NCBI GenBank assembly: GCA_902590435.1
Contig: CACIWU010000001.1
Coordinates: forward strand, 26,921-90,920
Direction: 5' to 3'
Length of the DNA: 64,000 bases
Source of the DNA: an uncultured SAR324 cluster bacterium
Lineage (GTDB): Bacteria; SAR324; NAC60-12
Shown piece after piece: positions 48,876-64,000 of this stretch (its first letter is position 1; each line of letters begins with the position of its first letter). A program made the translations under genes and the position numbers. The notes below the pieces were generated by a model. The model did not search any database. It was not told where the DNA came from and was given only the letters and a program-made list of their open reading frames with translations.

Positions 48876-50336
48876 TTAAGATTTGTCGATTAGGTTGTTA
48901 AACTCAACTATCAATTTATCAATTTTCGGTGCAAGTGAAAAAATATCACCCCAATATTCATCATGTTCATACCACTGTTTATTCAATTCATCCAATTCAC
49001 GCCCTTGCTGTTCTATCCAAGTAAAATATTTTAAGTTATGAATTCTCTTCTTCTCGTAATGAGTCAATTCAAGCAAATTATCTATTCCCGTGTCCATCAA
49101 TAATTGAAAATCTTTGTGCGAATCGATATTTGTATATTGACCTCTCTCTTCTATCAACTCATCTATACGAGAACCGTAGAGTTCCATTGAATCTGTTAAA
49201 ATGGTCACAACAAAATCATCTTCCGTTAATTCAAAATATTTAGAAAATTTTATTGCTGCAACTAAATTCCCTATACATGAAATTCCCAACCTATCTAAAC
49301 CTTCAGCAAATGCTCTATCAACACCGTAATGCTCTAAACAATCTCTACCAGATTCTTCATTAAAAAGTCTCAATAGGCGGATAGTCACTTCGTCATCAAC
49401 TCCAATTATCATATCAGTATTTCTGCAATCATGAATCCATGGCACATGTTTGTCTCCAATACCTTCTATACGATGGTCACCAAACCCATTGTTAAGAAGA
49501 GTAGGACACTGAAGAGCTTCCGCGACAGCCAATTTTGAGCCAGGATATCTCTCTTTTAAATAATATCCAAATGCCATTGAACCTGCCGAACCCGAAGCTG
49601 AAATACAACCAGCCAATTTGCTTCTAGGCCCCATTTCCTCCAAAAGAGCTTCTTCTGCAGCTTTACCAGTAACATGATAATGCCAAAGAGGATTACCAAA
49701 TTCTTCAAATTGATTAAAAATCTGAATATCTTTACGATCTTTCCTGAGTTCCCAACATTTATCAAAAATTTCCTTAACATTACTTTCACATCCCGGTGTG
49801 GCAATTACCTCACCAGCAAGTTTCTCAAGCCATTCAAAACGTTCTCGTGACATGTTTTCTGGTAGAATGGCTATTGAATCACAACCCAGTAAAGAAGAAA
49901 CATATGCACCTCCCCTACAATAATTACCAGTAGATGGCCATACAGCTTTGGTTTTTGAAGGACTGAATTGCCCAGTAACCAAAGCAGGAGCTAAACAACC
50001 ATAAGTTGCACCCACCTTATGTGCGCCCGTAGGGAACCATTTACCTACCAATGCAATTATTTTAGCATTTACACCAGATATTTCTTTGGGAATAACAATG
50101 TAATTCACATCTCCAAATCCACCGCCCTTAGCTAATGGTTCATTTTTCCAAGTTATTCTATACAAGTTGTTTGGATCAGATTCCCACAAAGTAATTTTCT
50201 TAAGTTCATTTTTAATGTGTTCAGGAATTTTTTCCGGATTTTGCATTTGTTCAAAAGTCGGTAACTTTACTTTATTTTTCTTACAATGCTTAGCATTCTG
50301 AAGAATTTTAGATTCGTTTCTTTTTAAATTAATCAT
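48876..50336 (-). CDS. fold-type II PLP-dependent enzyme, cysteine-synthase/TrpB-like with N- and C-terminal extensions
   Basis: 486 aa. PLP-Lys motif PTGAHKVGA (TrpB-like HTGxHK), CysK-like ILPENMSRER and IEGIGDKHVPW blocks. ~85-aa N and ~100-aa C extensions of unknown nature. Confidence 0.6.
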   Translation of the reverse strand: MINLKRNESKILQNAKHCKKNKVKLPTFEQMQNPEKIPEHIKNELKKITLWESDPNNLYRITWKNEPLAKGGGFGDVNYIVIPKEISGVNAKIIALVGKWFPTGAHKVGATYGCLAPALVTGQFSPSKTKAVWPSTGNYCRGGAYVSSLLGCDSIAILPENMSRERFEWLEKLAGEVIATPGCESNVKEIFDKCWELRKDRKDIQIFNQFEEFGNPLWHYHVTGKAAEEALLEEMGPRSKLAGCISASGSAGSMAFGYYLKERYPGSKLAVAEALQCPTLLNNGFGDHRIEGIGDKHVPWIHDCRNTDMIIGVDDEVTIRLLRLFNEESGRDCLEHYGVDRAFAEGLDRLGISCIGNLVAAIKFSKYFELTEDDFVVTILTDSMELYGSRIDELIEERGQYTNIDSHKDFQLLMDTGIDNLLELTHYEKKRIHNLKYFTWIEQQGRELDELNKQWYEHDEYWGDIFSLAPKIDKLIVEFNNLIDKS

Positions 50337-50357
50337 AATATTTTTATAAAAATTAAA

Positions 50358-51551
50358 TTAATCCCCTTTTCCAATTGGGACCAAATGTTCAAGAGAATTG
50401 ATAGAGTTTTTAGGAATAATAATTTTTTTGTTAGCTGACTTGATATCTTTAAGTCCATTTCCTGTAAGCAATACAACACATGTTTCATTTTTATTTATTA
50501 ATTCTTTTTGTTTCAACAGCCCTGCATAAGCAGTTGCTGAAGCAGGCTCAGAGAATAATCCACAAGTGGAAGATAATTCTTTTTGAGCTAAAAGTATTTC
50601 TTCGTCTGTAACTAAAATACAATGACCTCCATAATTTTCTAAATTTTTCTTCGCCAAGAGTCCATTGCTTGGAACATCCACAGAAATCGAATCTGCAACA
50701 GTTTTTGAAGGAGAAAAATCAAAAAATCCCGACTTCATTGCTCGATATATTGCGGAACTACCAGACGCCTGTATACCATGAATAACAGGAATATTTTTTA
50801 TTAAATCTAGTTTTAATAAATCACGAAATCCTTTATAAATACCGGAAATAATAACACCATCCCCAACACTAACAAAAATATGATCTGGTTCCTTTTTAAG
50901 CTGTTGTAAGAGTTCAAAAGATATAGTTTTTTTCCCTTCAATCGTCATAGGGTTGTATGCTGTGTTACGATTCAAACCACCATATAATTTAGAATACTCA
51001 AGCGAAAGAGAAAATGCTTGATCGTAATTCTTTTCCGCAATCACAACTTCAGCTCCATACTGGAGAGATTGAATCATTTTAGCGGGAGGAGCGTTTTTTG
51101 GTAAAAATAGCTTAACTTTTAAGCCTGCAGCTGCACCAACTCCTGCCATCGAAGACCCCGCGTTACCCGTTGAAGCAACAACAATTTCTTTGATTTGATA
51201 TTTTCTCGCAAAAGCTGCAACTAAAAATGATGCCCTATCTTTAAAAGAACCAGTTGGATTAACTCCATCATCTTTTAAAAACAATTCGGATAAGCCAACT
51301 TTTGCTGAAAGATTTTTAGGATGCCATAATGGAGTATTACCAACAGGAATTGAAGGGAAAAAATTTCGATCTACAGGTAAAAAATCTAACGGATTTTCGC
51401 TTTTTAAAGTCCCACTCAGTTCAACTTCAAGAACTCCATTAAGAGGTTGTCTTGGTTTCTGTTTTAAAGAGCAATCCGGACAAAGCATCAATTCTGGACT
51501 AATCTCATATTCTAAATCACAAAGACTGCATTTATATTTAAAACTTAACAA
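50358..51551 (-). CDS. thrC: threonine synthase (with N-terminal zinc-ribbon)
   Basis: PLP motif NPTGSFKDRAS, STGNAGSS, N-terminal CSLCD...CPDCS ribbon as in short-type ThrC. 21-nt gap to downstream PLP gene. Confidence 0.75.
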   Translation of the reverse strand: MLSFKYKCSLCDLEYEISPELMLCPDCSLKQKPRQPLNGVLEVELSGTLKSENPLDFLPVDRNFFPSIPVGNTPLWHPKNLSAKVGLSELFLKDDGVNPTGSFKDRASFLVAAFARKYQIKEIVVASTGNAGSSMAGVGAAAGLKVKLFLPKNAPPAKMIQSLQYGAEVVIAEKNYDQAFSLSLEYSKLYGGLNRNTAYNPMTIEGKKTISFELLQQLKKEPDHIFVSVGDGVIISGIYKGFRDLLKLDLIKNIPVIHGIQASGSSAIYRAMKSGFFDFSPSKTVADSISVDVPSNGLLAKKNLENYGGHCILVTDEEILLAQKELSSTCGLFSEPASATAYAGLLKQKELINKNETCVVLLTGNGLKDIKSANKKIIIPKNSINSLEHLVPIGKGD

Positions 51552-51675: not shown

Positions 51676-54600
51676 TTAATAGTGGAATTCCAAAGTTTCT
51701 AAAGGTAGGATCTCCTCAAGCTCCTCAAACAATTCAGGAGAAAAACTAATTTTTTCTTCGGGAGTAATTGTAACATTAACAGATTCAGGAGTTTTTATTA
51801 AAAAAGTAAAAGTTTTTTCTCCTGAAAATTTCAGCATAGTATTTCTAAGCAAAATCAATTCATCTTCACGAAGAGGTTCTGAACCCATTCTCAATGACAT
51901 GCTTTTAGCTTCTAACTCCCTTACTTCACTAATTAATCTAATCATATCAACAAATATCCCAACTTTTTCATCTCTATAATTAACCCTGCCTGAAATTAAT
52001 AAAGGGTCATCACTTTCCAAAAGCTCACCATATTTTTCAAAAACTTTTGAAAAGACAGGTAACTCAATTGTTCCTCGCATATCTTCTAAAATTACTATAG
52101 AAAACTTAGTATTATTTTGTGTAAGACGTACAGTATTATTGACAACAGTTCCTATTAAAGAAACTTTTTCATTTTCAGCATGTACCCCATCCTTTAATCT
52201 TGCTGTAGTTGTAGCCAACAAATTTAACTCAGAGGAATAACTGTCAAGAGGGTGGCCTGAAACATAAAATCCCAAAGCCAATTTTTCTTGTTTGAGACGT
52301 TCTCTTTTTGGCCAATTACGTACTTCAGGAAATTCTAGTTGAGTTTCTGTAGCTTCTGCATCTCCATCATCCATTAATTCAAATAAGCTTTCCTGAGATG
52401 GATCCTCTGCAAGTTGAAATTCCTGAGCCAAATGAAATGCATTTTCAAGAGCAGCAAATAATTGTGCTCTGTTTTCATGAAGAGAATCGAAAGATCCACA
52501 CTTTACTAAGGTTTCAAGAACTCTTCTATTAACATCATTTAAATTAACCTTTTTCATAAACTCCATAAAATCAGTTAATTGAGTTTTTTCATTCTTTACT
52601 TTTAGAATCGCATCAACTGCTTTACTTCCAACATTTTTTACTGCATTCAAACCAAAACGTATTACTTCAACTCTAGATTCCCTTCGAAGCCAATTTACAA
52701 AAGATGATCCTTCTCCTAAAATAGAGGAACTAGAATTATGACTAATAGAATCAAATTTTTTTGAAATTTTTTCTAGAAACTCTTTTTCATTTTTGAAGTC
52801 TTGATTGAGGATTGATTTTAGTGAAATCATCATTGATTCAACTTCTTCTTCATTAAGAATATCTGCTTGAACATTTTTACGCATAAAATCTCTTTCAAAA
52901 TGCGCTAAAGTCAATAAGGTAATTTTAAATTCCTCAGGAGCCACAGTAAAAGTTTTTATGCTATTATTAACATCGGGTGGTAATACTTTTATCCCCATCG
53001 TCTTGCATTCACTTATGTAGTTAATAATATTTTCTTGATTATTAATAGCACCATTAAATAATGCAGCCATTATTTGTACAGGGTAATGTGCTTTTAGAAA
53101 TGCAGTTTGGTATGAAATCAAACCATAGGCTACACTATGAGATTTGTTAAACCCGTAGCCTGAGAAGTAGTATATAATATCAAAAATTTCATTTGCTTTT
53201 TCCTTAGGATTGCTTTCTTTAGGACATTGTTCTACAAACTGAATATTTTTCATACATCCCTCAACAAACCGCAGACGCTGCTCATTCAAAATCTCTGGAG
53301 TCTTTTTCCCAATTGCACGACGCAATAAATCAGACTCACCCAAAGAAAATCCAGCTAGAACTTGCACGCTTTTTATAATTTGTTCTTGGTAAACTAATAC
53401 ACCATATGTTTCCTTCAAAATACCCTCCATTAAAGGATGAGGATAAACAACTCTCTTTTTACCATGTTTACATTGTACATAATCTTCTACCATACCTGAT
53501 CCTAAGGGACCTGGTCTATAAAGAGCCAATATTGCAACTATATCTCCAAAAGTCGTTGGCTGCATACTTGAAACCAGGCGTTTCATTCCAGAAGATTCTA
53601 ACTGAAAAACCCCTACAGTATCTGCCCTACACAACAAATCAAAAGTTAAATTATCATCCATAGGAATTTCACTAATATCTAACTTAACCTTGTCTTTACG
53701 ACTTTCAATAATCAAATCCAGAGTATTATCTATGGTAGAAAGATTTTGTAAGCCGAGAAAATCAAACTTGACTGCACCTTGGTCCTCTGCATATTTCATC
53801 GGATACATAGACTGAAGTGTTCCGTCCTTACCTGTACATACCGGCATAACTTCCCGAATATCTTGATTCATTATTATGACACCAGCAGCATGAGTACCTA
53901 AATGAGTATTTAAATCTTCCAGTTGCATACTAAAATTTATCAAACGTTTCTCATTTTCGCTCCCTTCTTTAGCTAATAAAGACAATGCAGGTTCTCTTTC
54001 AAGTGCCTGACCAAGAGTTATATTTAAATCATTAGGTATCAGTTTTGCGATTTTATCCGCTTCAGAATAAGGGAAATCTAGAACTCTTGCCACTCCCCTA
54101 ACTACAGCTTTTGCCTTTAGAGAACCAAAAGTGGATATCTGGCAAACATTTTTCTCTCCATATTTTTCACGAACATGTTCAATCACTTTTTCTCTCCCGG
54201 CAACATCAAAATCAATGTCAAAATCTGGAAGACTTACACGGTATGGATTCAAAAAACGTTCAAATAGTAATCCATAGCGAAGTGGATCTATATCTGTAAT
54301 TAACAAAGAATAAGCAACTAATGACCCTGCACCAGAACCTCTTCCAGGCCCAACAGAGACTCCATTATCTTTCGCCCATTTGATGAACTCTGAAACAATT
54401 AAAAAATACCCCGGATATTCCATCTGAATAATTACTTCTAATTCAAAACTTAAACGCTCCGCATAGGGCTTTTGAAATTCTTCAAAAGAAACTTGTGGAT
54501 TATAAAGTTCGTAAAGTCTCTTAATTCTTTTTTCAAAACCTATTTTAGATTCATTTCGAAGTTTATTTTCAATTGTCTCATCATCACTTGTAGGAATTTG

Positions 54601-55458
54601 TGGAAGAAATATTTTATTATTTTCTAGTGATAAATTACATTGATCTGCAATTTTATTAGCATTTTCTAGGCAAATCATGGGCAAACCTTTAAATGCAGAA
54701 ACCATTTCTTCCGAACTTTTTAAGTAACACTGATTCCCAGACTGAATTGGAGCTTCATTGTCCGAAACTTTAAGTTGTAATCCCATTAAACGAAGTATAT
54801 GTTGCGCTTCTGCTTCTTCAGGAGTTAGATAGAAACAATTATTTGTCCCCACTAATGGGATATCCAATTCACTTCCCAATTCTACTAGCTGATTGTTAAG
54901 ATTTTGCTGCTCCGAAAGTCCTGTATTTTGTATTTCAATATAATATCTGTCCTTAAAAAGATCCTTGAAACGTATTGCAACTTGTCGAGCATTTTCAATT
55001 CTTCCTTCGAGCAGACAAATATTAATTTCACTATCCATTCCTCCACTAAGTACAACTAAATCTTCATTATATTTTTCAAGCATTTCATTATTAATAATTG
55101 GCACTCCATTAATCTTACCCTTTGTATAACTAAGACTAACCAAATAATTCAAATTATGATAACCATTACGATTTTGACAAAGAAAAATAACATGCCCTGG
55201 ATAGTTAAATTTTTTTGTGGGAAAGTTTTGAATTTCTTTATCGTTTCCTTCAATCACTGAAGCTCCTAAACCTATTATAGGTTTTAAATTCGAATCTTTC
55301 ATGGCATGATAAAATTCAACAGCACCGAACATGTTGCCGTGATCAGTTATTGCACAAGACCCAAACCCTTTACTTTTAAGTGTGGGGATTAAATTTTTTA
55401 TGCGTATTGCTCCCTCAAGTAAAGAATATTGAGTATGCAAATGGAGGTGGGTAAACAT
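51676..55458 (-). CDS. dnaE: DNA polymerase III alpha subunit
   Basis: 1260 aa. PHP domain HLHLHTQYSLLEG, polymerase core, OB fold. Confidence 0.95.
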   Translation of the reverse strand: MFTHLHLHTQYSLLEGAIRIKNLIPTLKSKGFGSCAITDHGNMFGAVEFYHAMKDSNLKPIIGLGASVIEGNDKEIQNFPTKKFNYPGHVIFLCQNRNGYHNLNYLVSLSYTKGKINGVPIINNEMLEKYNEDLVVLSGGMDSEINICLLEGRIENARQVAIRFKDLFKDRYYIEIQNTGLSEQQNLNNQLVELGSELDIPLVGTNNCFYLTPEEAEAQHILRLMGLQLKVSDNEAPIQSGNQCYLKSSEEMVSAFKGLPMICLENANKIADQCNLSLENNKIFLPQIPTSDDETIENKLRNESKIGFEKRIKRLYELYNPQVSFEEFQKPYAERLSFELEVIIQMEYPGYFLIVSEFIKWAKDNGVSVGPGRGSGAGSLVAYSLLITDIDPLRYGLLFERFLNPYRVSLPDFDIDFDVAGREKVIEHVREKYGEKNVCQISTFGSLKAKAVVRGVARVLDFPYSEADKIAKLIPNDLNITLGQALEREPALSLLAKEGSENEKRLINFSMQLEDLNTHLGTHAAGVIIMNQDIREVMPVCTGKDGTLQSMYPMKYAEDQGAVKFDFLGLQNLSTIDNTLDLIIESRKDKVKLDISEIPMDDNLTFDLLCRADTVGVFQLESSGMKRLVSSMQPTTFGDIVAILALYRPGPLGSGMVEDYVQCKHGKKRVVYPHPLMEGILKETYGVLVYQEQIIKSVQVLAGFSLGESDLLRRAIGKKTPEILNEQRLRFVEGCMKNIQFVEQCPKESNPKEKANEIFDIIYYFSGYGFNKSHSVAYGLISYQTAFLKAHYPVQIMAALFNGAINNQENIINYISECKTMGIKVLPPDVNNSIKTFTVAPEEFKITLLTLAHFERDFMRKNVQADILNEEEVESMMISLKSILNQDFKNEKEFLEKISKKFDSISHNSSSSILGEGSSFVNWLRRESRVEVIRFGLNAVKNVGSKAVDAILKVKNEKTQLTDFMEFMKKVNLNDVNRRVLETLVKCGSFDSLHENRAQLFAALENAFHLAQEFQLAEDPSQESLFELMDDGDAEATETQLEFPEVRNWPKRERLKQEKLALGFYVSGHPLDSYSSELNLLATTTARLKDGVHAENEKVSLIGTVVNNTVRLTQNNTKFSIVILEDMRGTIELPVFSKVFEKYGELLESDDPLLISGRVNYRDEKVGIFVDMIRLISEVRELEAKSMSLRMGSEPLREDELILLRNTMLKFSGEKTFTFLIKTPESVNVTITPEEKISFSPELFEELEEILPLETLEFHY

Positions 55459-55743: not shown

Positions 55744-56574
55744 ATGTCAGCTTATGTTAGACCTGATAATCTTGAAGAAGCATTGGAGTTCTTAAGTGAA
55801 CAGCCTAGAATTTTACTCTCCGGAGGGACTGATTTCTTCCCAGCTAGAGTTGGTAAACCAATCAAAGAAAATGTACTTGATATAACTGGGATTACCAGTT
55901 TAAGATCTATTGAAATGACAAGTGAATATATAAAAATCGGAGCCCTAACTACATGGTCTGATATAGTTCAGTCAAAACTGCCTCCAGCTTTCAACGGATT
56001 AAAAAAAGCTGCAATTACAATTGGTGGTATACAAACTCAAAATGCTGCAACTATATGTGGTAATATATGTAATGCCTCTCCTGCAGCTGACAGTGTCCCA
56101 AATTTGATGGCATTAGATGCCAGAGTAAAATTACAATCTTTAAATGAATCAAGAATTCTTAATTTAGAGGATTTTCTAATAGGAAACAGAAAAACCTTAA
56201 GGAAGCCAAACGAATTGGTTAGTGAAATTTTAATTCCACATCCCAAAGAAAGTTCTTATGGAAATTTCGAAAAATTGGGAGCTCGCGCTTATCTAGTAAT
56301 TTCTATAGTAATGGTTGGAGCTGTAGTTGAATTGGATAAAAAACAAACCGTTTTAAATTTAAAAATAGCTGTTGGATCTTGCTCACCAGTTGCTAAAAGA
56401 CTTAAATTACTAGAAAAAGAAGCTGTAGGACAAAAAATTAAAACTATAAGAATCGAACCAAAGCACATTGATTCTTTGAAGCCAATAGATGATATAAGAG
56501 CAACAGCTAATTACAGAGCTAAAATCATTCCCGAATTGTTAAAAAGAGTAATCAAGGGAGTTGTAAAGCTATGA
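55744..56574 (+). CDS. molybdenum hydroxylase FAD-binding subunit (YgfM/CoxM-like)
   Basis: SD AGGGGA. FAD_binding_5 signature LLSGGTDFFP, CO-dehydrogenase flavoprotein C-domain. 4-nt ATGA overlap with next gene. Confidence 0.8.
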   Translation: MSAYVRPDNLEEALEFLSEQPRILLSGGTDFFPARVGKPIKENVLDITGITSLRSIEMTSEYIKIGALTTWSDIVQSKLPPAFNGLKKAAITIGGIQTQNAATICGNICNASPAADSVPNLMALDARVKLQSLNESRILNLEDFLIGNRKTLRKPNELVSEILIPHPKESSYGNFEKLGARAYLVISIVMVGAVVELDKKQTVLNLKIAVGSCSPVAKRLKLLEKEAVGQKIKTIRIEPKHIDSLKPIDDIRATANYRAKIIPELLKRVIKGVVKL

Positions 56575-59327
56575 GTATAATTGAAAACACTTCCATATCT
56601 TTCGTTTTAAATAATATTCCTCAAAGACTTTCAGTAAATCCGTTGAGTAGATTTTCCGACATTCTTAGAGATCATCTAGGTCTTACAGGCACTAAAGTAG
56701 GATGTGATGCAGGAGATTGTGGAGCTTGTACTATTCAAATTAATGGAGAACAGCGCTACGCTTGTTTAACAGCAACTGGACAATTAGAAGGATGTGATGT
56801 GCGAACTGTTGAAGGACTTTCAACAAATGGTTCAATTTCATCCCTCCAAAAAGCTTTCCTTGAAGAAGGGGCTGCTCAGTGTGGAATTTGTACCCCTGGG
56901 ATGTTAATGGCAGCTCAATCATTACTGGATAAGAATCCAAACCCCAAAAAACAACAAATTCTTGATGCACTCGGAGGAGTACTTTGTCGTTGTACTGGAT
57001 ATACAAAAATCGTTCAGGCCGTAATCAAAGCTGGGAAAGGATTATCAAATAAACAGATTGACAATTCTATTTCTTCCGTTGGAACTCGTATGGAAAAAGT
57101 AGACGGGATAAAGAAAATTAAGGGAAAAGAAATTTTCGGTGCAGATGTTTCCCCAAAGAATTCTCTTTGGCTAAAGGCTATCAGATCTCCGCATTTTAGA
57201 GCTAAATTCTCCCATGATGATCCAGATATAATTTTACAAAGATTTCCAGGTATAAAAAAAATTCTCACTGAAAAAGATATCACTGGTAATAACGGGTTTG
57301 GTATTTATCCAGACATAAAAGATCAACCAGTTTTAGCAAAAGGACATGTCAGATACAGAGGAGAAGCAGTAGTTGCCCTTGTGGGCGAAAAAGAAACTGT
57401 AGAATCCCTTAATGATGAAGATCTGGGATTAAAATGGGAACCTCTAGAAGCCATTCGTGGATGGGATGCTGCTCTTTCAGGAAAATTCGAACCAGTTCAA
57501 TCAGAAATCCCTGACAATATTTTAGCAGAGGGTTACCTCAAAAAAAATGATGTAAAAAAAGGTTTTGAAGAATCTTTTAAAACAGCAGAAGGACATTGGA
57601 TTACTTCTGCTGTTGAACATGGATATATCGAACCTGAAGCAGGTTATGCAGAAAAAGTTGGTCAACGTTTGAACATTTTTGTCTGTACTCAAACTCCATA
57701 TATGGATCAGGCAGAAATTGCTCAAGTTTTGGGAATTAATGCAAATCAAATCCGAATTATTCCTTCAGCTGTCGGTGGAGGATTTGGAGGAAAATTAGAT
57801 CTTTCTCTTCAACCATTAATCGCTCTTGCAGCTTGGATTTTAGATCGTCCTGTTCGTTGTATTTATTCCCGTCCAGAATCTTTAGCTTCAACAACAAAAC
57901 GACATCCAGTTCGTGCATTTGCAAAAGCAGGCTGTAATAGTGAAGGTAAGTTAACTGCATTTGAATATCATGGAGATTTCAATACAGGTGCGTACGCATC
58001 ATGGGGACCCACTGTTGCTGATAGAGTTCCCATTCATTGTACTGGCCCTTATTTTGTTCCAAATGTCCTTTCAAAAACTCGTGCACTTCTTACAAATGAA
58101 TCTCCTTCAGGGGCCTTCAGAGGTTTCGGTACTCCTCAAGCAGCAATTGCACATGAAGCACTTATGGACATTCTTGCTGAAAAAATGGGAATGGATCCAC
58201 TAGATTTTCGTATCAATAACGCAATTCGTAAAGGAGATAAAACTAATACCGGACAATTGCTAGAATACAGCGTAGGCCAAGTAGAATGTTTAGAATCTCT
58301 CAAAAATTCTTGGATTGAGTGGCGCAAAAAAAGTTTATTATACAATACTAAAAATAGAACACTCAAACAAGGAGTTGGATGTGGTTGTGTATGGTATGGA
58401 TGTGGTAACACAGCAATGTCAAACCCATCTACCATGCGAGTGGGGATAAACCATAATGGTAAAATAACTTTGTACAATGGAGCAGTAGATATTGGGCAAG
58501 GTGCTAATACAATTATGATTCAAATTTGTGCTGAATCACTAGGACTACCAGCCACACAATTTGAATTTGTAATGAGTGACACTGATCTTACTGCAGATGC
58601 TGGTAAAACATCTGCTTCGAGACAAACTTTCGTATCTGGTAAAGCTGCGCAGCTTGCTGGAGAAAATTTAAGAGCCCAAATTATCCATCTTGCAGAAGCA
58701 TCCGAAAATGCTTTTCTTAGAATTGAAGAGAATAAACTAATTGTAAAAGATGATTCAGGAGAACATTCCTTGATACTTTCTGATATCTTACCAAAATCGA
58801 ACGGAGATGTACTTATAGGTGAAGGAACATTTGATCCACCTACTACACCACTAGATGAAAATAGACAAGGAGATCCATATGCCACTTATGGATTTGGTGC
58901 CCAGATTGCTCTAGTAGAAGTAGATACTTTATTGGGAACCACCAAAGTAATTAAAATAGCAGCTGCCCATGATGTGGGAAAAGCTATAAATCCAACACAA
59001 GTAGAAGGACAGATTCAAGGTGGAATCGCACAAGGATTAGGGTTGGCATTAATGGAAGAATATATACAAGAATATAGTGAAAATTTTCACGATTATCTTA
59101 TGCCAACTGTTGGAGATATGCCGGACATAGATATAATACTTATTGAAGACCATGAACCTTTAGGTCCTTATGGTGCAAAGGGAATTGGCGAGCATGCCCT
59201 AATTCCGACAGCACCAGCTATTATTGGAGCTATCAAGGATGCTACTGGTATTTCTATCCACCACGTCCCCGCCACACCTGATCGTGTTCTTAAAGCACTC
59301 CATGACAGTAAATTATATAATGTCTGA
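56571..59327 (+). CDS. molybdenum hydroxylase, fused 2Fe-2S + molybdopterin-binding subunit (XdhD-like)
   Basis: N-terminal plant-type and second 2Fe-2S motifs (CDAGDCGACT; CGICTPGM, CRCTGY) followed by aldehyde-oxidase/xanthine-dehydrogenase a/b hammerhead and MoCo domains. 918 aa. Confidence 0.85.
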   Translation: MSIIENTSISFVLNNIPQRLSVNPLSRFSDILRDHLGLTGTKVGCDAGDCGACTIQINGEQRYACLTATGQLEGCDVRTVEGLSTNGSISSLQKAFLEEGAAQCGICTPGMLMAAQSLLDKNPNPKKQQILDALGGVLCRCTGYTKIVQAVIKAGKGLSNKQIDNSISSVGTRMEKVDGIKKIKGKEIFGADVSPKNSLWLKAIRSPHFRAKFSHDDPDIILQRFPGIKKILTEKDITGNNGFGIYPDIKDQPVLAKGHVRYRGEAVVALVGEKETVESLNDEDLGLKWEPLEAIRGWDAALSGKFEPVQSEIPDNILAEGYLKKNDVKKGFEESFKTAEGHWITSAVEHGYIEPEAGYAEKVGQRLNIFVCTQTPYMDQAEIAQVLGINANQIRIIPSAVGGGFGGKLDLSLQPLIALAAWILDRPVRCIYSRPESLASTTKRHPVRAFAKAGCNSEGKLTAFEYHGDFNTGAYASWGPTVADRVPIHCTGPYFVPNVLSKTRALLTNESPSGAFRGFGTPQAAIAHEALMDILAEKMGMDPLDFRINNAIRKGDKTNTGQLLEYSVGQVECLESLKNSWIEWRKKSLLYNTKNRTLKQGVGCGCVWYGCGNTAMSNPSTMRVGINHNGKITLYNGAVDIGQGANTIMIQICAESLGLPATQFEFVMSDTDLTADAGKTSASRQTFVSGKAAQLAGENLRAQIIHLAEASENAFLRIEENKLIVKDDSGEHSLILSDILPKSNGDVLIGEGTFDPPTTPLDENRQGDPYATYGFGAQIALVEVDTLLGTTKVIKIAAAHDVGKAINPTQVEGQIQGGIAQGLGLALMEEYIQEYSENFHDYLMPTVGDMPDIDIILIEDHEPLGPYGAKGIGEHALIPTAPAIIGAIKDATGISIHHVPATPDRVLKALHDSKLYNV

Positions 59328-60780
59328 TTCTGAAAAAGATTCCTCTGATAATAAAGTCAATTGTGATGCGTGCCCCATTCTTTGTAGAATAAGTCCTGGT
59401 AAAACTGGTTCTTGCGATCGTTATGGAAATTTCGAAGGTAAATTAAAACGTATTGATCCTATAATTCTTACTCAAAAAACCGTCGAAAAAAATGAAGCTC
59501 TAGTACCTTTTAGTGAAAATACTTTAAATTGGAAAGGATCTGTTATTAATCATGAGACTATTTTCCCTACTGCTATAGGTGCTGGAACAACTTATCCAGA
59601 TTACAAACCCGCTCCTTTTATTATTGCAAGCAAGCATGATGATATTGACATGATAACTGTTGTAACAGAGGGAATTTTTAGTTATTGCAGTTATAAAATT
59701 AAAATTGATACCGACCGCTATGTGGGACCGGAACAATCTTCTGTAAAATGTGAGGGAGAGAATGTTGGTCATGTTATGACAGCTGAATATGGCTCTCAAA
59801 TGTTATCGTTAGGAGGAGTACATCATTTAACTGGAGGAAGTAAGCAAGAAGGCCGGATAACCTGTCAGATGATGGAAGATTTAGGTAATCAAAAGTCTGT
59901 TGAATTAGAAATTGAAAATGGATCTAAGTTGATTATTCAAGCAGGTAAATCACCAATAATAGATGATATCCAGGAAGAAAGAATGAGAGTAGGATGTGGT
60001 TCTGCTACCATAGGAATCTTTGCTCAACAGTGGTTCGGTAAAGTAGATGAAGTTATTGTAGTTGACGAACATATTACGGGAATGCTTTCTGAACACCAAG
60101 CAGGTAGGTATATAGGGATGAAACCTTCTGGTATTCGATTAAGAGGACGCCGCTCAACTCCTGGAAGATATTTTCAAGTCGCCAATCCAGGACATGGTTG
60201 GGGAGGAACAGATATTTCTGATCCATTAGAAATCATAGATCGTATTAAAGAAGGAGTATCATTCCCTGGGTTAAAACTTTTAATGGTCAGCACAACCGGT
60301 GAGGACGCAGCTTACTTTGTTTTAAACGAAAATTTAAAACCTTGCAAAGAACGCATTCCAGGAGAACTTCAAAAAGTAGTTGATCGCATTGGTGAAAACT
60401 GTGAACCCGCCCAAAGTAGTGTTCTATTCGTGGCCGGAGCAGGAGGTAGTTTGAGAGCTGGAGTTACTGAAAATCCAGTTCGATTGACACGGTCCGTTAG
60501 GCAAATGATAACTCGAACAACATGTGGGGGTGCGCCAGTCTATGTTTGGCCAGGAGGAGGAATAACAGTAATGGTTGATGTATCAAAAATGCCTCAAAAT
60601 TCATTTGGCAGCGTTCCCACTCCAGCTATAGTCGCACCAATTGAATTTACCATGAAACTAAAAGATTTTGAGGATTTAGGAGGGCATCTAAACCATGTAA
60701 GGGAAATCGAAAAAATACCTGAAAATCGAGAAACCAAAATTATAAATTGGAATGAAAAAAATCCGTGGCCATTTCCATAG
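59320..60780 (+). CDS. hypothetical Cys-rich 486-aa protein, translationally coupled to Mo-hydroxylase
   Basis: ATG at 59320 overlaps upstream stop (ATGTCTGA). N-terminal C-x2-C-x3-C-x9-C cluster. Several Gly-rich loops. No recognised family. Confidence 0.55.
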   Translation: MSDSEKDSSDNKVNCDACPILCRISPGKTGSCDRYGNFEGKLKRIDPIILTQKTVEKNEALVPFSENTLNWKGSVINHETIFPTAIGAGTTYPDYKPAPFIIASKHDDIDMITVVTEGIFSYCSYKIKIDTDRYVGPEQSSVKCEGENVGHVMTAEYGSQMLSLGGVHHLTGGSKQEGRITCQMMEDLGNQKSVELEIENGSKLIIQAGKSPIIDDIQEERMRVGCGSATIGIFAQQWFGKVDEVIVVDEHITGMLSEHQAGRYIGMKPSGIRLRGRRSTPGRYFQVANPGHGWGGTDISDPLEIIDRIKEGVSFPGLKLLMVSTTGEDAAYFVLNENLKPCKERIPGELQKVVDRIGENCEPAQSSVLFVAGAGGSLRAGVTENPVRLTRSVRQMITRTTCGGAPVYVWPGGGITVMVDVSKMPQNSFGSVPTPAIVAPIEFTMKLKDFEDLGGHLNHVREIEKIPENRETKIINWNEKNPWPFP

Positions 60781-60834
60781 AAAAAAATTTCACATTTTTA
60801 TAAGAAAATTAATAATAATCGATAATCAATCTCA

Positions 60835-61683
60835 ATGAATCAGGAAGACCATCGTCTGCATCTTCAAGAGGGACCTATTAATCTAATTCTAGACGTAGAT
60901 GCATTTAAAGATATACGAGAAAATTTATTTTTTTCAGCAGAAAAAAGACTGAGTACTGTTCTTAGAGAACTTGTTCTGGAATTGGACTTGTTAAAACTAC
61001 CTTGGAAAATTCATAGTCCTGTCCCAAAAGGGGGAATAGCAAAAAGAATGTTCTACGCAGTAAGTGATCTAGATGTTTTTGTTACTCCAATGGCTGCTGT
61101 CGCAGGTGCTGTTGCAGACGAGATTCTTGATGTCATGCGTAAAACTGTCGAAAACTCCGATTACTACCTAGATAATGTCAAAAGAATGTATGTAAATAAC
61201 GGAGGAGACCTTTCATTTTGGTTAAAAAATGGTTCTTCATTTTCTGTGGGAGTTATTGATAATATTGAAGCACCAGAATTAAATACCAAAGTTTCGCTTC
61301 ATCATGAAAGCCCGGTGAGAGGTATCGCTACTTCCGGTTGGCGAGGCCGCTCACAAAGCCTTGGGATTGCGGATGCTGTAACAGTTTTGGCTAAATCTGC
61401 AGTTGAAGCAGATGTTGCAGCAACTTTGATTGCAAATGATGTAAATATAGAATACCCAGGTATTGAAAAACGTCCTGCATCTGAATTGAAAGATGATAGT
61501 GATCTAGGATCAATGCCAGTTACTATTGGCGTACCTGAATTACCAGATTTTATGATTTCTGAAGCATTAAACAAAGGAGTAAAAACCGCGAGAAAATTTA
61601 TTAACATGGGAATAATTGAAACAGCATACCTTTCCCTCCAAAAACAAACACTTGTTGTAGAAAAAAATAATAATGAGAAATAA
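60835..61683 (+). CDS. ApbE-like / UPF0280-family protein
   Basis: Block GIATSGWRGRSQSLGIADAVTVLAKSAVEADVAATL resembles ApbE signature (TSG..R...G..D.VTV.A..A..ADA.AT). Confidence 0.5.
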   Translation: MNQEDHRLHLQEGPINLILDVDAFKDIRENLFFSAEKRLSTVLRELVLELDLLKLPWKIHSPVPKGGIAKRMFYAVSDLDVFVTPMAAVAGAVADEILDVMRKTVENSDYYLDNVKRMYVNNGGDLSFWLKNGSSFSVGVIDNIEAPELNTKVSLHHESPVRGIATSGWRGRSQSLGIADAVTVLAKSAVEADVAATLIANDVNIEYPGIEKRPASELKDDSDLGSMPVTIGVPELPDFMISEALNKGVKTARKFINMGIIETAYLSLQKQTLVVEKNNNEK

Positions 61684-62269
61684 AATGAGCGATCTAATAA
61701 AAGTTAGAAAAATAGTTACCCATACTGAAAATATATTTCATGAAGGAGGTCCTTCCCTCAAAAATCCAATCAAAAAAGGATATATTTCAATTGTGTTAAA
61801 TAATCCATATGCAGGAAAATTCGTAGAGGATATTACCCCCATGATGGAAGCACTAAAGCCTGTGGGATTGGAAGCGGCCGAACATCTGATAAAATTACTA
61901 GGAGGGTCAAATCAAATTCAAAGTTACGGGAAAGGCTCAATTGTTGGAGAAGAAGGAGAATTAGAACATGGAGCGCTCTGGCATGTCCCAGGTGGATATG
62001 CAATGCGAGAAGCTCTTGGAGGGGCGTTGGCTATAGTTCCCTCATCAAAAAAAGTAGGAGGAATAGGGTGCCGTTTGGATATCCCAATTACACATATAAA
62101 TGCATCTTACGTGCGCAGCCACTTTGACGCAATGGAAGTTTATGTTCAAGATGCTCCAAGGCCAAAAGAAATTGTCTATAGCCTAGTCATGACTACTGGT
62201 GGAAGAACTCATTCCCGAGTAGGAGGATTAGAAGCGGATCAAATTTCCGTCAAAGATGGTCTTAGGTAA
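61673..62269 (+). CDS. DUF1185 / 'amino acid synthesis' (AA_synth) family protein
   Basis: ~195 aa. N-terminal IRKIVTHTENIFHEGG...IVLNNPYAGKF pattern characteristic of PF06684-type proteins. Start may be the internal Met at 61685. Confidence 0.45.
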   Translation: MRNKMSDLIKVRKIVTHTENIFHEGGPSLKNPIKKGYISIVLNNPYAGKFVEDITPMMEALKPVGLEAAEHLIKLLGGSNQIQSYGKGSIVGEEGELEHGALWHVPGGYAMREALGGALAIVPSSKKVGGIGCRLDIPITHINASYVRSHFDAMEVYVQDAPRPKEIVYSLVMTTGGRTHSRVGGLEADQISVKDGLR

Positions 62270-62337: not shown

Positions 62338-64000
62338 CTAATTTCTTTTTCTATATTTTATTGTTTCCTCTAAATTTACGGTTAATTCTTGATGGTTGAT
62401 TACGACACCAAAAAGTTCTTTTACTCTTTGAATTGAATAATAACCTCTAAGGACATCCAGCAAGACTAATTCTGGAGTTCTAAGAAAGGGATCTTCATAT
62501 CCTCCTCCTCCAGGAGTAGAAACATGGATAGTATCTCCTTCTTGCACGAGTATATTTTGATCTTTTGAAAAGTGTGGAGGTATGTATGATTCTCCGCTTT
62601 GCACTACTTTCACAAAATTTAATCCTCCATCTTTACCCTTTAAAACTCCCTGAGGACCAAATCTACCATGATCCATAACCATAGAGACCTTAGCATTCCC
62701 TCTTATAATTTTGATTTTATAATTAACTCCAAACCCTCCTCGTTTTTTCCCAGCACCCCCAGATCCCTCATGAAGTGAATACTCTTCAAACAAAACAGGA
62801 TAAAATTGTTCCATGACTTCGACTGGAGTTGTTTTAGAAATTCCAATTGTTGAACATCCATTTGAAAGGCCATCCTCATTGGGATTGCCTCCATAACCTC
62901 CTCCGCTTATAACATACATTACATAGTTACGATTATACTTAGGATCAAACCCTCCCAAACAAAGGTTCCCACTTGTACCTGCAGGTGCTGCAAATAGTTG
63001 ATTTGGGATTGCTTTTACAAGTGCACTAAAAACCGATTCTGCTATTCGCTGACTTACCTCAGCAGCGCATCCGGAAACAGGACGAGGATATTTAGCGTAC
63101 AAAAAAGTTTCTTCAGGATCTTCAATGTGCAAAGGCTGGAAAGTACCTGCGTTAAGAGGTACTTCAGGGAAGATATGTTTAATTGCTAGATAAATTGAAG
63201 ATTTAGTAGTAGCAATAACACTGTTCATAGGTCCCAAACATGGAGGACTTGAACCAGACATGTCAAAATAAAGTTCCGTGTCTAACTTGCGAATTTTCAT
63301 ATCAATTCGCAAGGGTTCATTTACAACACCATCAGAATCTACTATACCTTCACCATGATAAATCCCATCGGGTATTTCTTTTATTCGAGCCCTCATTTGT
63401 TTTGCCGCCCGGATTTTTAATTCTTTAATGGAATTTTTTACTATTTCTTCTCCATATCGATCAATAAGTTGAGTAAATCTCTTTTCACCGACACTTAGAG
63501 CGGCTGCTTGAGCTTTGATATCACCTATTCGTTGATCAGCAATACGAATATTTGAAAGTACAATAGAAAGTATTTCCTCATCAAGAACCCCTTCTTTGTA
63601 AAGTTTTACTGGTGGTAAACGTAATCCTTCCTGCTCAACTTCAGTTGCATTCGCTGAAAATCCTCCCGGCACGGCACCTCCAGTATCTGGCCAATGCCCT
63701 GTATTCGCTAGCCATGCGAACAATTTTCCTTTGTAAAAAAATGGCTTTACAAAACGGACATCCATTAAATGTGTGCCACCAAGATATGGATCATTTACAA
63801 TAAAAACATCCCCTGGCTTTAAATTTTTTGCCCTATCAATAACGCACTTCGTTCCAAACTGCATTGTTCCTACAAATACAGGTAATCCTAGTTCTCCTTG
63901 AGAAATAAGTTCACCATTTTCTATATCATATATTCCATCTGAACGATCCAATGCTTCTGAGATGACTGGACTAAAAGCAGATCTTACAAAAGCAAGATCC
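62338..64000 (-). CDS. hyuB: hydantoinase B/oxoprolinase family protein (HyuB domain), 5' end beyond window
   Basis: C-terminal PGGGGYEDPFLR..V..DV..GY.S signature. Reading frame stays open upstream of the nominal TTG at 63951 to the window edge (..DLAFVRSAFSPVISEALDRSDGIY..), matching the conserved HyuB N-region. Gene is therefore partial or a HyuA-HyuB fusion. Confidence 0.75.
   Translation of the reverse strand, partial: DLAFVRSAFSPVISEALDRSDGIYDIENGELISQGELGLPVFVGTMQFGTKCVIDRAKNLKPGDVFIVNDPYLGGTHLMDVRFVKPFFYKGKLFAWLANTGHWPDTGGAVPGGFSANATEVEQEGLRLPPVKLYKEGVLDEEILSIVLSNIRIADQRIGDIKAQAAALSVGEKRFTQLIDRYGEEIVKNSIKELKIRAAKQMRARIKEIPDGIYHGEGIVDSDGVVNEPLRIDMKIRKLDTELYFDMSGSSPPCLGPMNSVIATTKSSIYLAIKHIFPEVPLNAGTFQPLHIEDPEETFLYAKYPRPVSGCAAEVSQRIAESVFSALVKAIPNQLFAAPAGTSGNLCLGGFDPKYNRNYVMYVISGGGYGGNPNEDGLSNGCSTIGISKTTPVEVMEQFYPVLFEEYSLHEGSGGAGKKRGGFGVNYKIKIIRGNAKVSMVMDHGRFGPQGVLKGKDGGLNFVKVVQSGESYIPPHFSKDQNILVQEGDTIHVSTPGGGGYEDPFLRTPELVLLDVLRGYYSIQRVKELFGVVINHQELTVNLEETIKYRKRN

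What the first reader, a model, noticed from the sequence alone, without database searches (positions are those of the whole stretch)
59320..60780. 486-aa Cys-rich protein of no recognisable family, translationally coupled to the Mo-hydroxylase large subunit
Seen: start codon embedded in ATGTCTGA, overlapping the stop of the 918-aa FeS-MoCo subunit, which implies stoichiometric co-expression. The N-terminus carries C15-x2-C18-x3-C22-x9-C32, a possible Fe-S or Zn site. The remainder is Gly-rich loops (GAGGSLRAG, WPGGGITVMVD). Inference: it is not an XdhC-type maturation factor, which is ~280 aa with a different pattern. It could be a novel electron-transfer or substrate-channeling partner, or a downstream pathway enzyme.
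Basis: partly seen in the sequence, partly recalled or inferred. Interest (0 to 1): 0.6.

Follow-up and report, generated by a model that had tools for sequence, protein, structure and literature searches.

The report
Known enzyme: 6-hydroxynicotinate reductase (Hnr)
The "family-less" Cys-rich protein is an ordinary short-form copy of 6-hydroxynicotinate reductase, the already characterised second enzyme of the reductive vitamin-B3 (nicotinate) breakdown pathway, sitting right behind its partner nicotinate dehydrogenase.

Summary
There is a 486-aa ORF at 59320-60780. Its ATG lies in ATGTCTGA and overlaps the stop of the 918-aa FeS-MoCo subunit. The C15-x2-C18-x3-C22-x9-C32 motif and both Gly-rich motifs are present. 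The claim of "no recognisable family" holds only for Pfam, NCBIfam and PDB sequence searches. The protein belongs to a very large family that NCBI and JGI name 6-hydroxynicotinate reductase (Hnr, EC 1.3.7.1). It is 40% identical (E=5e-97, 458 aa) to the purified Eubacterium barkeri enzyme HNR_EUBBA. It lacks that enzyme's N-terminal 2x[4Fe-4S] ferredoxin domain, like the two proteobacterial homologues whose ORFs I examined. The four N-terminal Cys are invariant in 47/47 homologues. The upstream Mo-hydroxylase is by far closest to E. barkeri nicotinate dehydrogenase NdhL/NdhM. The gene order FAD subunit, FeS-MoCo, Hnr, UPF0280 (ApbE-like), AA_synth recurs in annotated proteobacterial plasmids and in dozens of Bacillota and Thermodesulfobacteriota loci. 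Residual interest: the core has no curated model and no solved fold relative. The invariably adjacent ApbE-like gene has no known role. This SAR324-like lineage shows no enamidase nearby.

The parts
55744..56574 (+). FAD-binding subunit of the Mo-hydroxylase (NdhF-like), first gene of the operon
   Evidence: Pfam FAD_binding_5 (2e-39) and CO_deh_flav_C. It overlaps the next gene by 4 nt.
56571..59327 (+). 918-aa fused [2Fe-2S] + molybdopterin subunit; nicotinate dehydrogenase type (NdhS+NdhL+NdhM fused)
   Evidence: Pfam Fer2_2, MoCoBD_1, MoCoBD_2. When the two MoCo halves are searched separately in the PDB, each hits E. barkeri nicotinate dehydrogenase far above anything else: 3hrd_A 265 bits against 141 for the next hit, and 3hrd_B 223 bits against 152. 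The residue aligned with Tyr13 of NdhM is also Tyr. PMC5746545 reports that Tyr13M is modelled to bind the ring N of nicotinate.
59320..60780 (+). hnr: short-form 6-hydroxynicotinate reductase, 486 aa (the finding)
   Evidence: 40% identity, E=5e-97 to HNR_EUBBA. More than 8000 homologues, several named 6-hydroxynicotinate reductase. Conserved synteny.
59362..59415 (+). C15-x2-C18-x3-C22-x9-C32, inferred Fe-S cluster site (probably the [2Fe-2S] of Hnr)
   Evidence: All four Cys are present in 47/47 homologues. They align with C68/C71/C75/C85 of HNR_EUBBA, the only 4-Cys set there outside the two ferredoxin CxxCxxCxxxC motifs.
59995..59997 (+). Cys226 in the conserved M-R-x-G-C-G-S-A-T/S-x-G motif; the only other conserved Cys and a candidate flavin or catalytic residue (speculative)
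   Evidence: C in 46/47 sequences and G227 in 47/47. The same GCGSAT motif occurs in HNR_EUBBA.
60436..60462 (+). GAGGSLRAG conserved Gly-rich loop
   Evidence: G373, G375, G376 and R379 are invariant.
60547..60579 (+). WPGGGITVMVD conserved Gly-rich loop
   Evidence: P411, G412, G413 and I415 are invariant.
60835..61683 (+). UPF0280 / ApbE-like protein, 282 aa, the near-universal downstream neighbour of hnr
   Evidence: NCBIfam PRK04334.1-2 at 1e-94. Relatives carry Pfam PF27030 AbpE_bact, plus a weak PF02424 ApbE hit in the E. barkeri-type locus. A profile of this family hits PDB 2o34 at 6e-22 and reaches true ApbE only at E about 0.4. It follows hnr in almost every locus examined.
61673..62269 (+). 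AA_synth (PF06684 / DUF1185) protein, 198 aa, third member of the conserved triad; function unknown
   Evidence: Pfam 5.5e-70. PDB 3byq at 5e-55, 'uncharacterized protein DUF1185'. It co-occurs with hnr in most loci.
62338..63951 (-). Hydantoinase B / oxoprolinase-type subunit, convergent; its link to the pathway is only tentative
   Evidence: Pfam Hydantoinase_B at 4e-141. It is kept next to the hnr operon, together with hydantoinase A, in related loci L003-L005, L087 and L090, none of which shows an enamidase.

Best explanation
The ORF encodes a short-form 6-hydroxynicotinate reductase (Hnr, EC 1.3.7.1), the second enzyme of the reductive nicotinate degradation pathway first worked out in Eubacterium barkeri.

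Proposed mechanism:
- The two upstream genes form a nicotinate dehydrogenase: an FAD subunit plus a fused 2x[2Fe-2S]/MoCo subunit. It hydroxylates nicotinate at C6.
- Hnr then takes two low-potential electrons, from ferredoxin in E. barkeri.
- The electrons pass through the Fe-S cluster held by C15/C18/C22/C32 to a flavin. The flavin is reported as covalently bound in the E. barkeri enzyme.
- The pyridone ring of 6-hydroxynicotinate is reduced to 1,4,5,6-tetrahydro-6-oxonicotinate (THON). This removes aromaticity, so the ring can be opened hydrolytically.

What is shown here: homology to HNR_EUBBA, invariance of the Cys motif, the nicotinate-dehydrogenase type of the upstream enzyme, and the conserved operon.

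What is inferred:
- The substrate.
- The type of cluster.
- The presence of a flavin.
- The electron donor. This form lacks the built-in 2x[4Fe-4S] ferredoxin domain, so a separate ferredoxin or reductase must deliver the electrons.

The 8-nt start/stop overlap reflects co-expression of two consecutive pathway enzymes.
For: - Direct BLASTP to HNR_EUBBA (P0509, identified by its UniRef name): 40% identity over 458 aa, E=5e-97, covering window residues 10-463.
- Family size and naming: more than 8000 full-length homologues, several named '6-hydroxynicotinate reductase' by NCBI or JGI, including SAR324 relatives at 72-73% identity. Plasmid records annotate the homologue as Hnr.
- The same gene order (XDH-M, MoCo, Hnr, UPF0280, AA_synth) occurs in Sulfitobacter, with the identical 8-nt overlap. 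The hnr, UPF0280, AA_synth part recurs in a Comamonadaceae plasmid whose Mo-hydroxylase genes lie several kb downstream, and in L003, L087, L089 and L090.
- Of 80 loci fished with E. barkeri NdhM, about 55 carry an Hnr homologue within 10 kb.
- The upstream MoCo protein is closest to 3hrd_A and 3hrd_B by a wide margin.
- C15/18/22/32 are invariant in 47/47 sequences.
- Long forms carry Fer4 dicluster domains. Some members are fused to GltD/DPD-like NAD(P)H modules. Both fit a terminal reductase fed through Fe-S clusters.
Against: - No enzymology exists for this protein or for any short-form member that I could read.
- 40% identity to the characterised enzyme leaves room for a different substrate.
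- The database names are propagated annotation.
- No enamidase homologue was found in the 64-kb window or in the closest related loci, although nearly all other Hnr loci have one.
- No ferredoxin domain is present, and no homologue of the Sulfitobacter-cluster ferredoxin-NADP reductase (the only external donor searched for) was found in the window.
- The cofactor content of HNR_EUBBA (covalent flavin, one [2Fe-2S], two [4Fe-4S]) comes from my memory of the Alhapel et al. 2006 abstract. The paper is not in the held library.
Confidence: 0.8

Rival explanations
1. An Hnr-family ene/ring reductase working on a different hydroxylated N-heterocycle. In this SAR324-like lineage the Mo-hydroxylase/Hnr pair would have drifted to another substrate, and the product would be opened by the neighbouring ATP-dependent hydantoinase A/B-type lactamase instead of enamidase.
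For: Enamidase is absent from the window and from L003-L005, L087 and L090, but present in nearly every other Hnr locus. Hydantoinase B/A is kept next to the operon in all of these related loci. L090 adds an isochorismatase-family hydrolase and an MTTB protein. Identity to the characterised enzyme is only 40%.
Against: Both MoCo halves are far closer to E. barkeri nicotinate dehydrogenase than to any other solved Mo-hydroxylase, and Tyr13M is conserved. The operon order and the overlap are the same as in Sulfitobacter, where enamidase is present. Enamidase could simply be encoded elsewhere in the genome. The related loci share overall synteny (dnaE and the PALP genes), so retention of hydantoinase next to the operon may be neighbourhood inertia. 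An isochorismatase-family nicotinamidase would in fact fit nicotinate metabolism.
Confidence: 0.15
2. One reading: a novel accessory protein of the Mo-hydroxylase (electron-transfer subunit, substrate-channeling partner or maturation factor) forming a stoichiometric complex with it.
For: There is an 8-nt start/stop overlap with the MoCo subunit, conserved in Sulfitobacter (8 nt) and L089 (11 nt). The Fe-S motif is invariant. The two reactions are redox-complementary: two electrons are released, then two are consumed (inference).
Against: The protein is homologous along its length to an enzyme that was purified and assayed on its own as a reductase. In the E. barkeri-type cluster, hnr is upstream of and separated from ndhFSLM. 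The Hnr/UPF0280/AA_synth triad occurs without any Mo-hydroxylase nearby in L086. The overlap is replaced by a 114-nt gap in L003. There is no XdhC signature.
Confidence: 0.04
3. A spurious or mis-started ORF.
For: None beyond the existence of an alternative upstream TTG at 59224.
Against: Thousands of full-length homologues with E-values down to 0. The predicted structure is confident, with pLDDT 84 and pTM 0.81. Homologue N-termini agree with the ATG start.
Confidence: 0.01

Closest known systems
6-hydroxynicotinate reductase of Eubacterium barkeri (HNR_EUBBA, EC 1.3.7.1; Alhapel et al. 2006)
   Same: The core is homologous end to end: 40% identity, E=5e-97. Both have the Cx2Cx3Cx9C motif, the GCGSAT(I/V)G motif and the GGS(L/A)R and PGGGI loops. 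Both are followed by an ApbE-like gene and accompanied by an AA_synth gene and an NdhFSLM-type Mo-hydroxylase.
   Different: The window protein lacks the N-terminal 55-residue 2x[4Fe-4S] ferredoxin domain. The gene lies downstream of, and overlaps, the MoCo gene instead of lying upstream. NdhS/L/M are fused into one 918-aa protein. No enamidase or B12-dependent downstream genes are nearby.
Proteobacterial nicotinate-degradation cluster: Azorhizobium caulinodans, Bradyrhizobiaceae SG-6C (PMC3511419); Sulfitobacter and Comamonadaceae plasmids annotated by PGAP
   Same: These are short-form Hnr proteins at 57-61% identity. Sulfitobacter has the same order FAD subunit, fused FeS-MoCo, Hnr, UPF0280, AA_synth, with the same 8-nt overlap.
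   Different: Those clusters also carry enamidase (amidohydrolase), a ferredoxin-NADP reductase, an ABC transporter and a second AA_synth paralogue. None of these was found in the window. The window instead has a convergent hydantoinase B gene.
XdhC/CoxI-type molybdenum cofactor insertion chaperones
   Same: Only the position next to a Mo-hydroxylase operon.
   Different: There is no XdhC_CoxI domain or any sequence similarity. Size and conserved motifs are different.
ApbE-flavinylated proteins (NqrC, RnfG, cytoplasmic fumarate reductase of Klebsiella)
   Same: An ApbE-superfamily gene sits next to the putative target. The E. barkeri enzyme is reported to carry a covalently bound flavin (from memory of Alhapel 2006).
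   Different: The canonical D-x-x-[S/T]-G-A-[S/T] motif (PMC12052999) is absent from all 47 family members and from HNR_EUBBA. The neighbour is a very divergent ApbE relative, reaching true ApbE only at E about 0.4.

Membership tests
6-hydroxynicotinate reductase (Hnr, EC 1.3.7.1) | Full-length sequence homology of the catalytic core to the characterised enzyme HNR_EUBBA | tested here: met
   BLASTP gives 40% identity over 458 aa, E=5e-97, aligning window residues 10-463 with HNR_EUBBA 63-495. P0509 was identified as HNR_EUBBA by its UniRef name.
6-hydroxynicotinate reductase (Hnr, EC 1.3.7.1) | Conserved Cx2Cx3Cx9C cluster-binding motif at the start of the core | tested here: met
   C15/C18/C22/C32 are invariant in 47/47 sequences and align with C68/71/75/85 of HNR_EUBBA.
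6-hydroxynicotinate reductase (Hnr, EC 1.3.7.1) | N-terminal 2x[4Fe-4S] ferredoxin domain. This is a feature of the E. barkeri enzyme and of the 'long form'. It is not shared by the family as a whole, so I treat it as an accessory domain rather than a defining one. | tested here: not met
   It is absent from the window protein. In the Sulfitobacter homologue the match to the window protein begins at the first codon of the annotated Hnr CDS, so it has no N-terminal extension. It is present in anaerobe members.
6-hydroxynicotinate reductase (Hnr, EC 1.3.7.1) | Genomic association with an E. barkeri-type nicotinate dehydrogenase | tested here: met
   The gene immediately upstream overlaps hnr. 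Its MoCo halves score 265 and 223 bits against 3hrd_A and 3hrd_B, versus 141 and 152 for the next best hits. About 55 of 80 NdhM-anchored loci carry an Hnr homologue.
6-hydroxynicotinate reductase (Hnr, EC 1.3.7.1) | Association with enamidase (the third pathway step) | tested here: not met
   tblastn with two enamidase-type amidohydrolases found nothing in the 64-kb window or in L003-L005, while almost all other Hnr loci scored. The rest of the genome could not be searched.
6-hydroxynicotinate reductase (Hnr, EC 1.3.7.1) | Adjacent UPF0280 (ApbE-like) and AA_synth genes | tested here: met
   Genes at 60835-61683 and 61673-62269. The same triad occurs in nearly every locus, including the E. 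barkeri-type one.
6-hydroxynicotinate reductase (Hnr, EC 1.3.7.1) | Ferredoxin-dependent reduction of 6-hydroxynicotinate to THON; Fe-S and covalent flavin content | not testable with these tools
   This needs protein chemistry.
XdhC/CoxI maturation factor | XdhC_CoxI / XdhC_C domains, protein of about 280 aa | tested here: not met
   No Pfam hit at all, even at E<=10. The protein is 486 aa.
Canonical ApbE flavinylation target | D-x-x-[S/T]-G-A-[S/T] motif | tested here: not met
   A regex found the motif in 0 of 47 family members and not in HNR_EUBBA. The motif definition is from PMC12052999.

The most novel reading that the evidence does not exclude
Hnr, the ApbE-like UPF0280 protein and the AA_synth protein form one conserved functional module. 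UPF0280 would be a dedicated cytoplasmic flavin transferase or maturase. It would install Hnr's covalent flavin at a non-canonical site, since there is no DxxSGAT motif. The target protein's fold has no solved relative. AA_synth would be a further partner. A secondary possibility concerns this SAR324-like lineage, where the enamidase step may be taken over by the adjacent ATP-dependent hydantoinase A/B-type lactamase. Neither idea appears in the papers I could search: no held paper contains 'UPF0280', and the 2025 ApbE review has no occurrence of 'nicotinate'.
Probability: 0.35. Interest if true: 0.55.

Novelty: already known. Interest (0 to 1): 0.22.

Why it matters
As a finding it mostly closes a question. 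The operon at 55744-62269 is a nicotinate (vitamin B3) catabolic module of the reductive THON type in an uncultured marine SAR324-like bacterium. The 'orphan' protein is its known second enzyme.

It also exposes a gap. A biochemically characterised enzyme family with thousands of members still has no Pfam or NCBIfam model, no solved structure and no detectable fold relative. Readers and HMM-based pipelines will therefore keep calling it an orphan.

The near-universal ApbE-like and AA_synth neighbours are a concrete, testable lead to how Hnr's covalent flavin is made.

Tried and rejected
Searches that found nothing for the 486-aa protein:
- Pfam at E<=0.01 and at E<=10, NCBIfam, and PDB sequence search.
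- Foldseek of a confident AF2 model against the PDB: no hit at E<=1e-3. The only hints were very weak ones to a GcvT/DMGDH barrel. They are echoed by a sub-threshold Pfam GCV_T_C hit on HNR_EUBBA. I do not rely on them.

Libraries and papers that were unavailable:
- Alhapel 2006 and Wagener 2009 are not in the held library.

Searches that were empty or useless:
- Paper searches for cofactor details returned nothing.
- One search was swamped because 'THON' matched 'marathon'.
- A riboflavin-degradation preprint was irrelevant.
- The genome scan with E. barkeri NdhM did not return the E. barkeri genome itself. HNR_EUBBA was reached instead through the Acetobacterium bakii orthologue and a cluster look-up.
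- The look-up of encoding contigs has no record for the window protein.
- The promoter and terminator scans gave counts no higher than in shuffled sequence.

Ideas rejected:
- XdhC: no domain.
- A canonical ApbE target: motif absent.
- A Zn-only structural site. This is less likely, given the homology to a protein reported to hold a third Fe-S cluster, but it is not excluded.
- A spurious ORF.

Full report
**1. Observation**

The window contains a 486-aa ORF at 59320-60780 on the + strand.
- Its ATG (59320-59322) and the TGA stop (59325-59327) of the 918-aa ORF at 56571-59327 lie in the octamer ATGTCTGA, an 8-nt overlap.
- The translation starts MSDSEKDSSDNKVNCDACPILCRISPGKTGSCDRYG, which gives C15-x2-C18-x3-C22-x9-C32 exactly as stated.
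- GAGGSLRAG (residues 373-381) and WPGGGITVMVD (410-420) are both present.
- The mechanical ORF list also gives a longer TTG-initiated version from 59224. Homologues of 486-493 aa cover 100% of the ATG-initiated product. The exact 486-aa sequence is in the protein collection with NCBI as its source. The ATG is therefore the start.
- The upstream protein has Fer2_2, MoCoBD_1 and MoCoBD_2 domains. It is preceded by an FAD_binding_5/CO_deh_flav_C subunit with a 4-nt overlap.

**2. What the curated libraries say**

Pfam (also at E<=10), NCBIfam and a PDB sequence search return nothing for the 486-aa protein.

**3. What it is**

A search of the large protein collection returned more than 8000 full-length homologues.
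- The top 120 are 63-97% identical. Several are named '6-hydroxynicotinate reductase' by NCBI or JGI.
- A cluster at 72-73% identity is named '6-hydroxynicotinate reductase [SAR324 cluster bacterium]'. This also suggests the source lineage of the window.
- In the plasmid collection, 26 records encode homologues of about 56-61% identity, most of them annotated Hnr / 6-hydroxynicotinate reductase.
- An exhaustive HMMER scan of 1.84 billion cluster representatives found 1222 representatives at E<=1e-3. These include full-length members at 30-46% identity that mostly start about 50 residues earlier.
- Those extra residues are a 2x CxxCxxCxxxCP ferredoxin domain, with Pfam Fer4 families.

To test membership directly I needed the characterised E. 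barkeri enzyme.
- I recovered the sequence of E. barkeri NdhM from the PDB alignment of 3hrd_B.
- I used it to fetch 80 genomic loci.
- In the Acetobacterium bakii locus, whose NdhM is 80% identical, I found the Hnr orthologue.
- I searched with that orthologue and looked up cluster members.
- P0509 carries the UniRef name 'HNR_EUBBA, 6-hydroxynicotinate reductase, Eubacterium barkeri'.
- BLASTP of the window protein against it gives 40% identity over 458 aa, E=5e-97, aligning window residues 10-463 with HNR_EUBBA 63-495.

HNR_EUBBA residues 1-55 form the 2x[4Fe-4S] ferredoxin domain (Pfam Fer4). The window protein lacks this domain. It is a 'short form', like the Sulfitobacter homologue, whose annotated CDS has no N-terminal extension.

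**4. Conservation**

I aligned 47 sequences: 23 short forms at 64-84% identity and 23 long forms at 37-46%.
- C15, C18, C22 and C32 are invariant.
- C226 is conserved in 46/47 sequences, within M-R-x-G-C-G-S-A-T/S-x-G.
- None of the other six Cys of the window protein is conserved throughout; the best, C361, is Cys in 41/47.
- HNR_EUBBA has eight Cys in its two ferredoxin motifs, plus C68/71/75/85, which align with the window's four.
- From memory of the Alhapel et al. 2006 abstract, the E. barkeri enzyme contains a covalently bound flavin, one [2Fe-2S] and two [4Fe-4S] clusters. The paper is not in the held library. By elimination, the window's Cys motif would be the [2Fe-2S] site. This is an inference.
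They are probably cofactor- or substrate-binding loops. This is also an inference.

**5. Neighbourhood**

The upstream MoCo protein was searched in two halves.
- It hits E. barkeri nicotinate dehydrogenase NdhL (3hrd_A) at 265 bits, against 141 for the next structure.
- It hits NdhM (3hrd_B) at 223 bits, against 152 for the next.
- The residue aligned with Tyr13 of NdhM is also Tyr. Tyr13M is modelled to hydrogen-bond the ring nitrogen of nicotinate (PMC5746545).

Downstream lie a UPF0280 protein (NCBIfam PRK04334.1-2, 1e-94) and an AA_synth/DUF1185 protein (Pfam 5.5e-70, PDB 3byq).

The same order (XDH-M, fused MoCo, Hnr, UPF0280, AA_synth) is annotated on a Sulfitobacter plasmid, with the identical 8-nt MoCo/Hnr overlap. 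There it is accompanied by an amidohydrolase (enamidase type), a ferredoxin-NADP reductase and an ABC transporter.

A Comamonadaceae plasmid is similar for hnr, UPF0280 and the two AA_synth genes, with the amidohydrolase, the ferredoxin-NADP reductase and the ABC transporter nearby. Its Mo-hydroxylase genes, however, lie several kb downstream of the transporter genes rather than next to hnr.

[quoted passage not shown] That paper reports an Hnr homologue 42% identical to the E. barkeri enzyme, in a strain shown to degrade nicotinate via 6-hydroxynicotinate.

Among the 80 loci anchored on NdhM relatives (Bacillota, Thermodesulfobacteriota, Spirochaetes), about 55 contain an Hnr homologue at 39-46% identity. 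In most of them it is followed by UPF0280, and most also carry AA_synth. Many of the remaining loci are short contigs.

A contig whose Hnr is at least 90% identical to HNR_EUBBA shows this order: LysR, hnr, ApbE-like, hgd-like, ndhF, ndhS, ndhL, ndhM, a PTS_EIIC_2 protein, enamidase, AA_synth, B12 mutase.

The MoCo/Hnr junction varies between loci:

| Locus | Junction |
|---|---|
| window | 8-nt overlap |
| Sulfitobacter (L001) | 8-nt overlap |
| L089 | 11-nt overlap |
| L087 | 1-nt overlap |
| L088 | 2-nt gap |
| L003 | 114-nt gap |

In the E. barkeri-type cluster, hnr is not adjacent to the MoCo genes at all. The overlap therefore means co-expression of consecutive pathway enzymes. It is not evidence of a stoichiometric complex.

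**6. Mechanism**

Best explanation (confidence about 0.8):
- Nicotinate is hydroxylated at C6 by the FAD/FeS/MoCo enzyme.
- Hnr reduces 6-hydroxynicotinate to 1,4,5,6-tetrahydro-6-oxonicotinate, using low-potential electrons that enter through the Cys4 Fe-S cluster and reach a flavin.
- In long forms, the built-in ferredoxin domain is the entry point.
- In some members, a GltD/DPD-like NAD(P)H module (Fer4_20 + Pyr_redox_2) is fused N-terminally (P0131) or inserted into the protein (P0125).
- In short forms, the donor must be a separate protein. The proteobacterial clusters carry a ferredoxin-NADP reductase.
- A tblastn search with the Sulfitobacter ferredoxin-NADP reductase found no homologue in the window. 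I did not search for small ferredoxin genes. The donor in this organism is therefore unknown.

**7. Differences and open points**

(a) Enamidase. It was not found in the 64-kb window or in the closest related loci (L003-L005), although almost every other Hnr locus has it.
- These relatives instead keep a convergent hydantoinase B/A pair. L090 also adds an isochorismatase-family hydrolase.
- The hydantoinase/oxoprolinase/caprolactamase family hydrolyses lactams with ATP, and THON is a lactam. Replacement of enamidase is therefore conceivable.
- Equally, enamidase may be encoded elsewhere, and the hydantoinase proximity may be inherited synteny. I rate the replacement idea at about 0.15-0.2.

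(c) UPF0280. It is a divergent member of the ApbE superfamily.
- Relatives carry Pfam PF27030 'AbpE_bact', and the E. barkeri-type copy also has a weak PF02424 ApbE hit.
- A profile of 28 members hits PDB 2o34 at 6e-22.
- It reaches true ApbE (2o18, 4xgx, 3pnd) only at E about 0.4. The alignment does run over the G-x-x-AD / GG(D) / SG / ADA motifs.
- Because Hnr is reported to carry a covalent flavin, a dedicated flavin-transferase role is attractive.
- However, the canonical ApbE target motif D-x-x-[S/T]-G-A-[S/T] (PMC12052999) is absent from all 47 family members and from HNR_EUBBA. If the idea is right, the recognition site or the chemistry is non-canonical.
- No held paper mentions UPF0280.

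**8. Comparison with the known**

The protein works like, and is a member of, the Hnr family. The membership tests gave these results:

| Test | Result |
|---|---|
| Core homology to HNR_EUBBA | met |
| Cys motif | met |
| Association with NdhFSLM-type nicotinate dehydrogenase | met |
| Association with UPF0280 and AA_synth | met |
| N-terminal ferredoxin domain | not met (an accessory feature of long forms) |
| Enamidase within reach | not met |
| Catalytic activity and cofactors | not testable with these tools |

It is not XdhC.

**9. Verdict**

The finding is real, but it is already explained. The protein is a known, annotated enzyme in a known operon.

Interest is low (0.22). The remaining value lies in side observations:
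- a large characterised family without any curated HMM or solved fold;
- a conserved Hnr / ApbE-like / AA_synth triad of unknown logic;
- a SAR324-type cluster without enamidase.

Noticed in passing
window 60835-62269; loci L001-L091: hnr is nearly always followed by a UPF0280/ApbE-like gene and accompanied by an AA_synth (DUF1185) gene. This holds from Bacillota to Proteobacteria and includes the E. barkeri-type cluster. Their role is unknown. The canonical ApbE target motif is absent from Hnr.
   Followed up: partly
window 62338-63951 (-); L003-L005, L087, L090: The SAR324-like loci lack an enamidase gene near hnr but keep a convergent hydantoinase B/A pair. L090 also has an isochorismatase-family (nicotinamidase-like) gene and an MTTB-family gene. 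The hydantoinase pair could be an alternative ATP-dependent ring-opening enzyme, or the arrangement could be inherited synteny.
   Followed up: partly
P0125 (982 aa), P0131 (969 aa): Some Hnr homologues are fused to a GltD/dihydropyrimidine-dehydrogenase-like NAD(P)H module (Fer4_20 + Pyr_redox_2). In P0125 the module is inserted in the middle of the Hnr core. In P0131 it is N-terminal.
   Followed up: partly
L087 7206-10001: In a relative whose Hnr is 80% identical, the FeS-MoCo protein is split into 590-aa and 301-aa ORFs at the MoCoBD_1/MoCoBD_2 boundary. This is the same place where E. barkeri NdhL/NdhM are split. An AAA_14/DUF4143 gene and a PhdYeFM antitoxin-family gene sit between hnr and UPF0280, and a PemK/RHH pair sits between the hydantoinase B and A genes.
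   Followed up: no
L086 10001-12911; L088 6349-11464: The modules can separate. L086 has Hnr, ApbE-like and AA_synth with no Mo-hydroxylase within 10 kb. L088 has the Mo-hydroxylase and Hnr, followed by Octopine_DH and 3HCDH genes instead of the two neighbours.
   Followed up: no
HNR_EUBBA residues 161-233; model m0a391f8f0a33: Two independent weak signals point to a GcvT C-terminal barrel-like subdomain. Pfam GCV_T_C scores E=0.007 on HNR_EUBBA, and there are weak Foldseek hits to dimethylglycine dehydrogenase/oxidase and T-protein. Both are below significance.
   Followed up: no
L006 (NZ_JAYFPU010000295.1): A 3.4-kb contig binned as 'Christensenella sp.' encodes NdhL/NdhM 98% identical to E. 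barkeri 3hrd_B. It is probably an E. barkeri-like organism or a mis-binned contig.
   Followed up: no
window 60835-61683: The local Pfam copy gives no hit for the UPF0280 protein, whereas precomputed annotations on relatives list PF27030 (AbpE_bact). The local library apparently predates that family.
   Followed up: no
window 48876-51551 (-) and 51676-55458 (-): Two PALP-domain (PLP-dependent, cysteine/threonine-synthase-like) genes and dnaE lie directly upstream of the operon. They are syntenic in the relatives L003 and L087. There is no obvious link to nicotinate metabolism.
   Followed up: no
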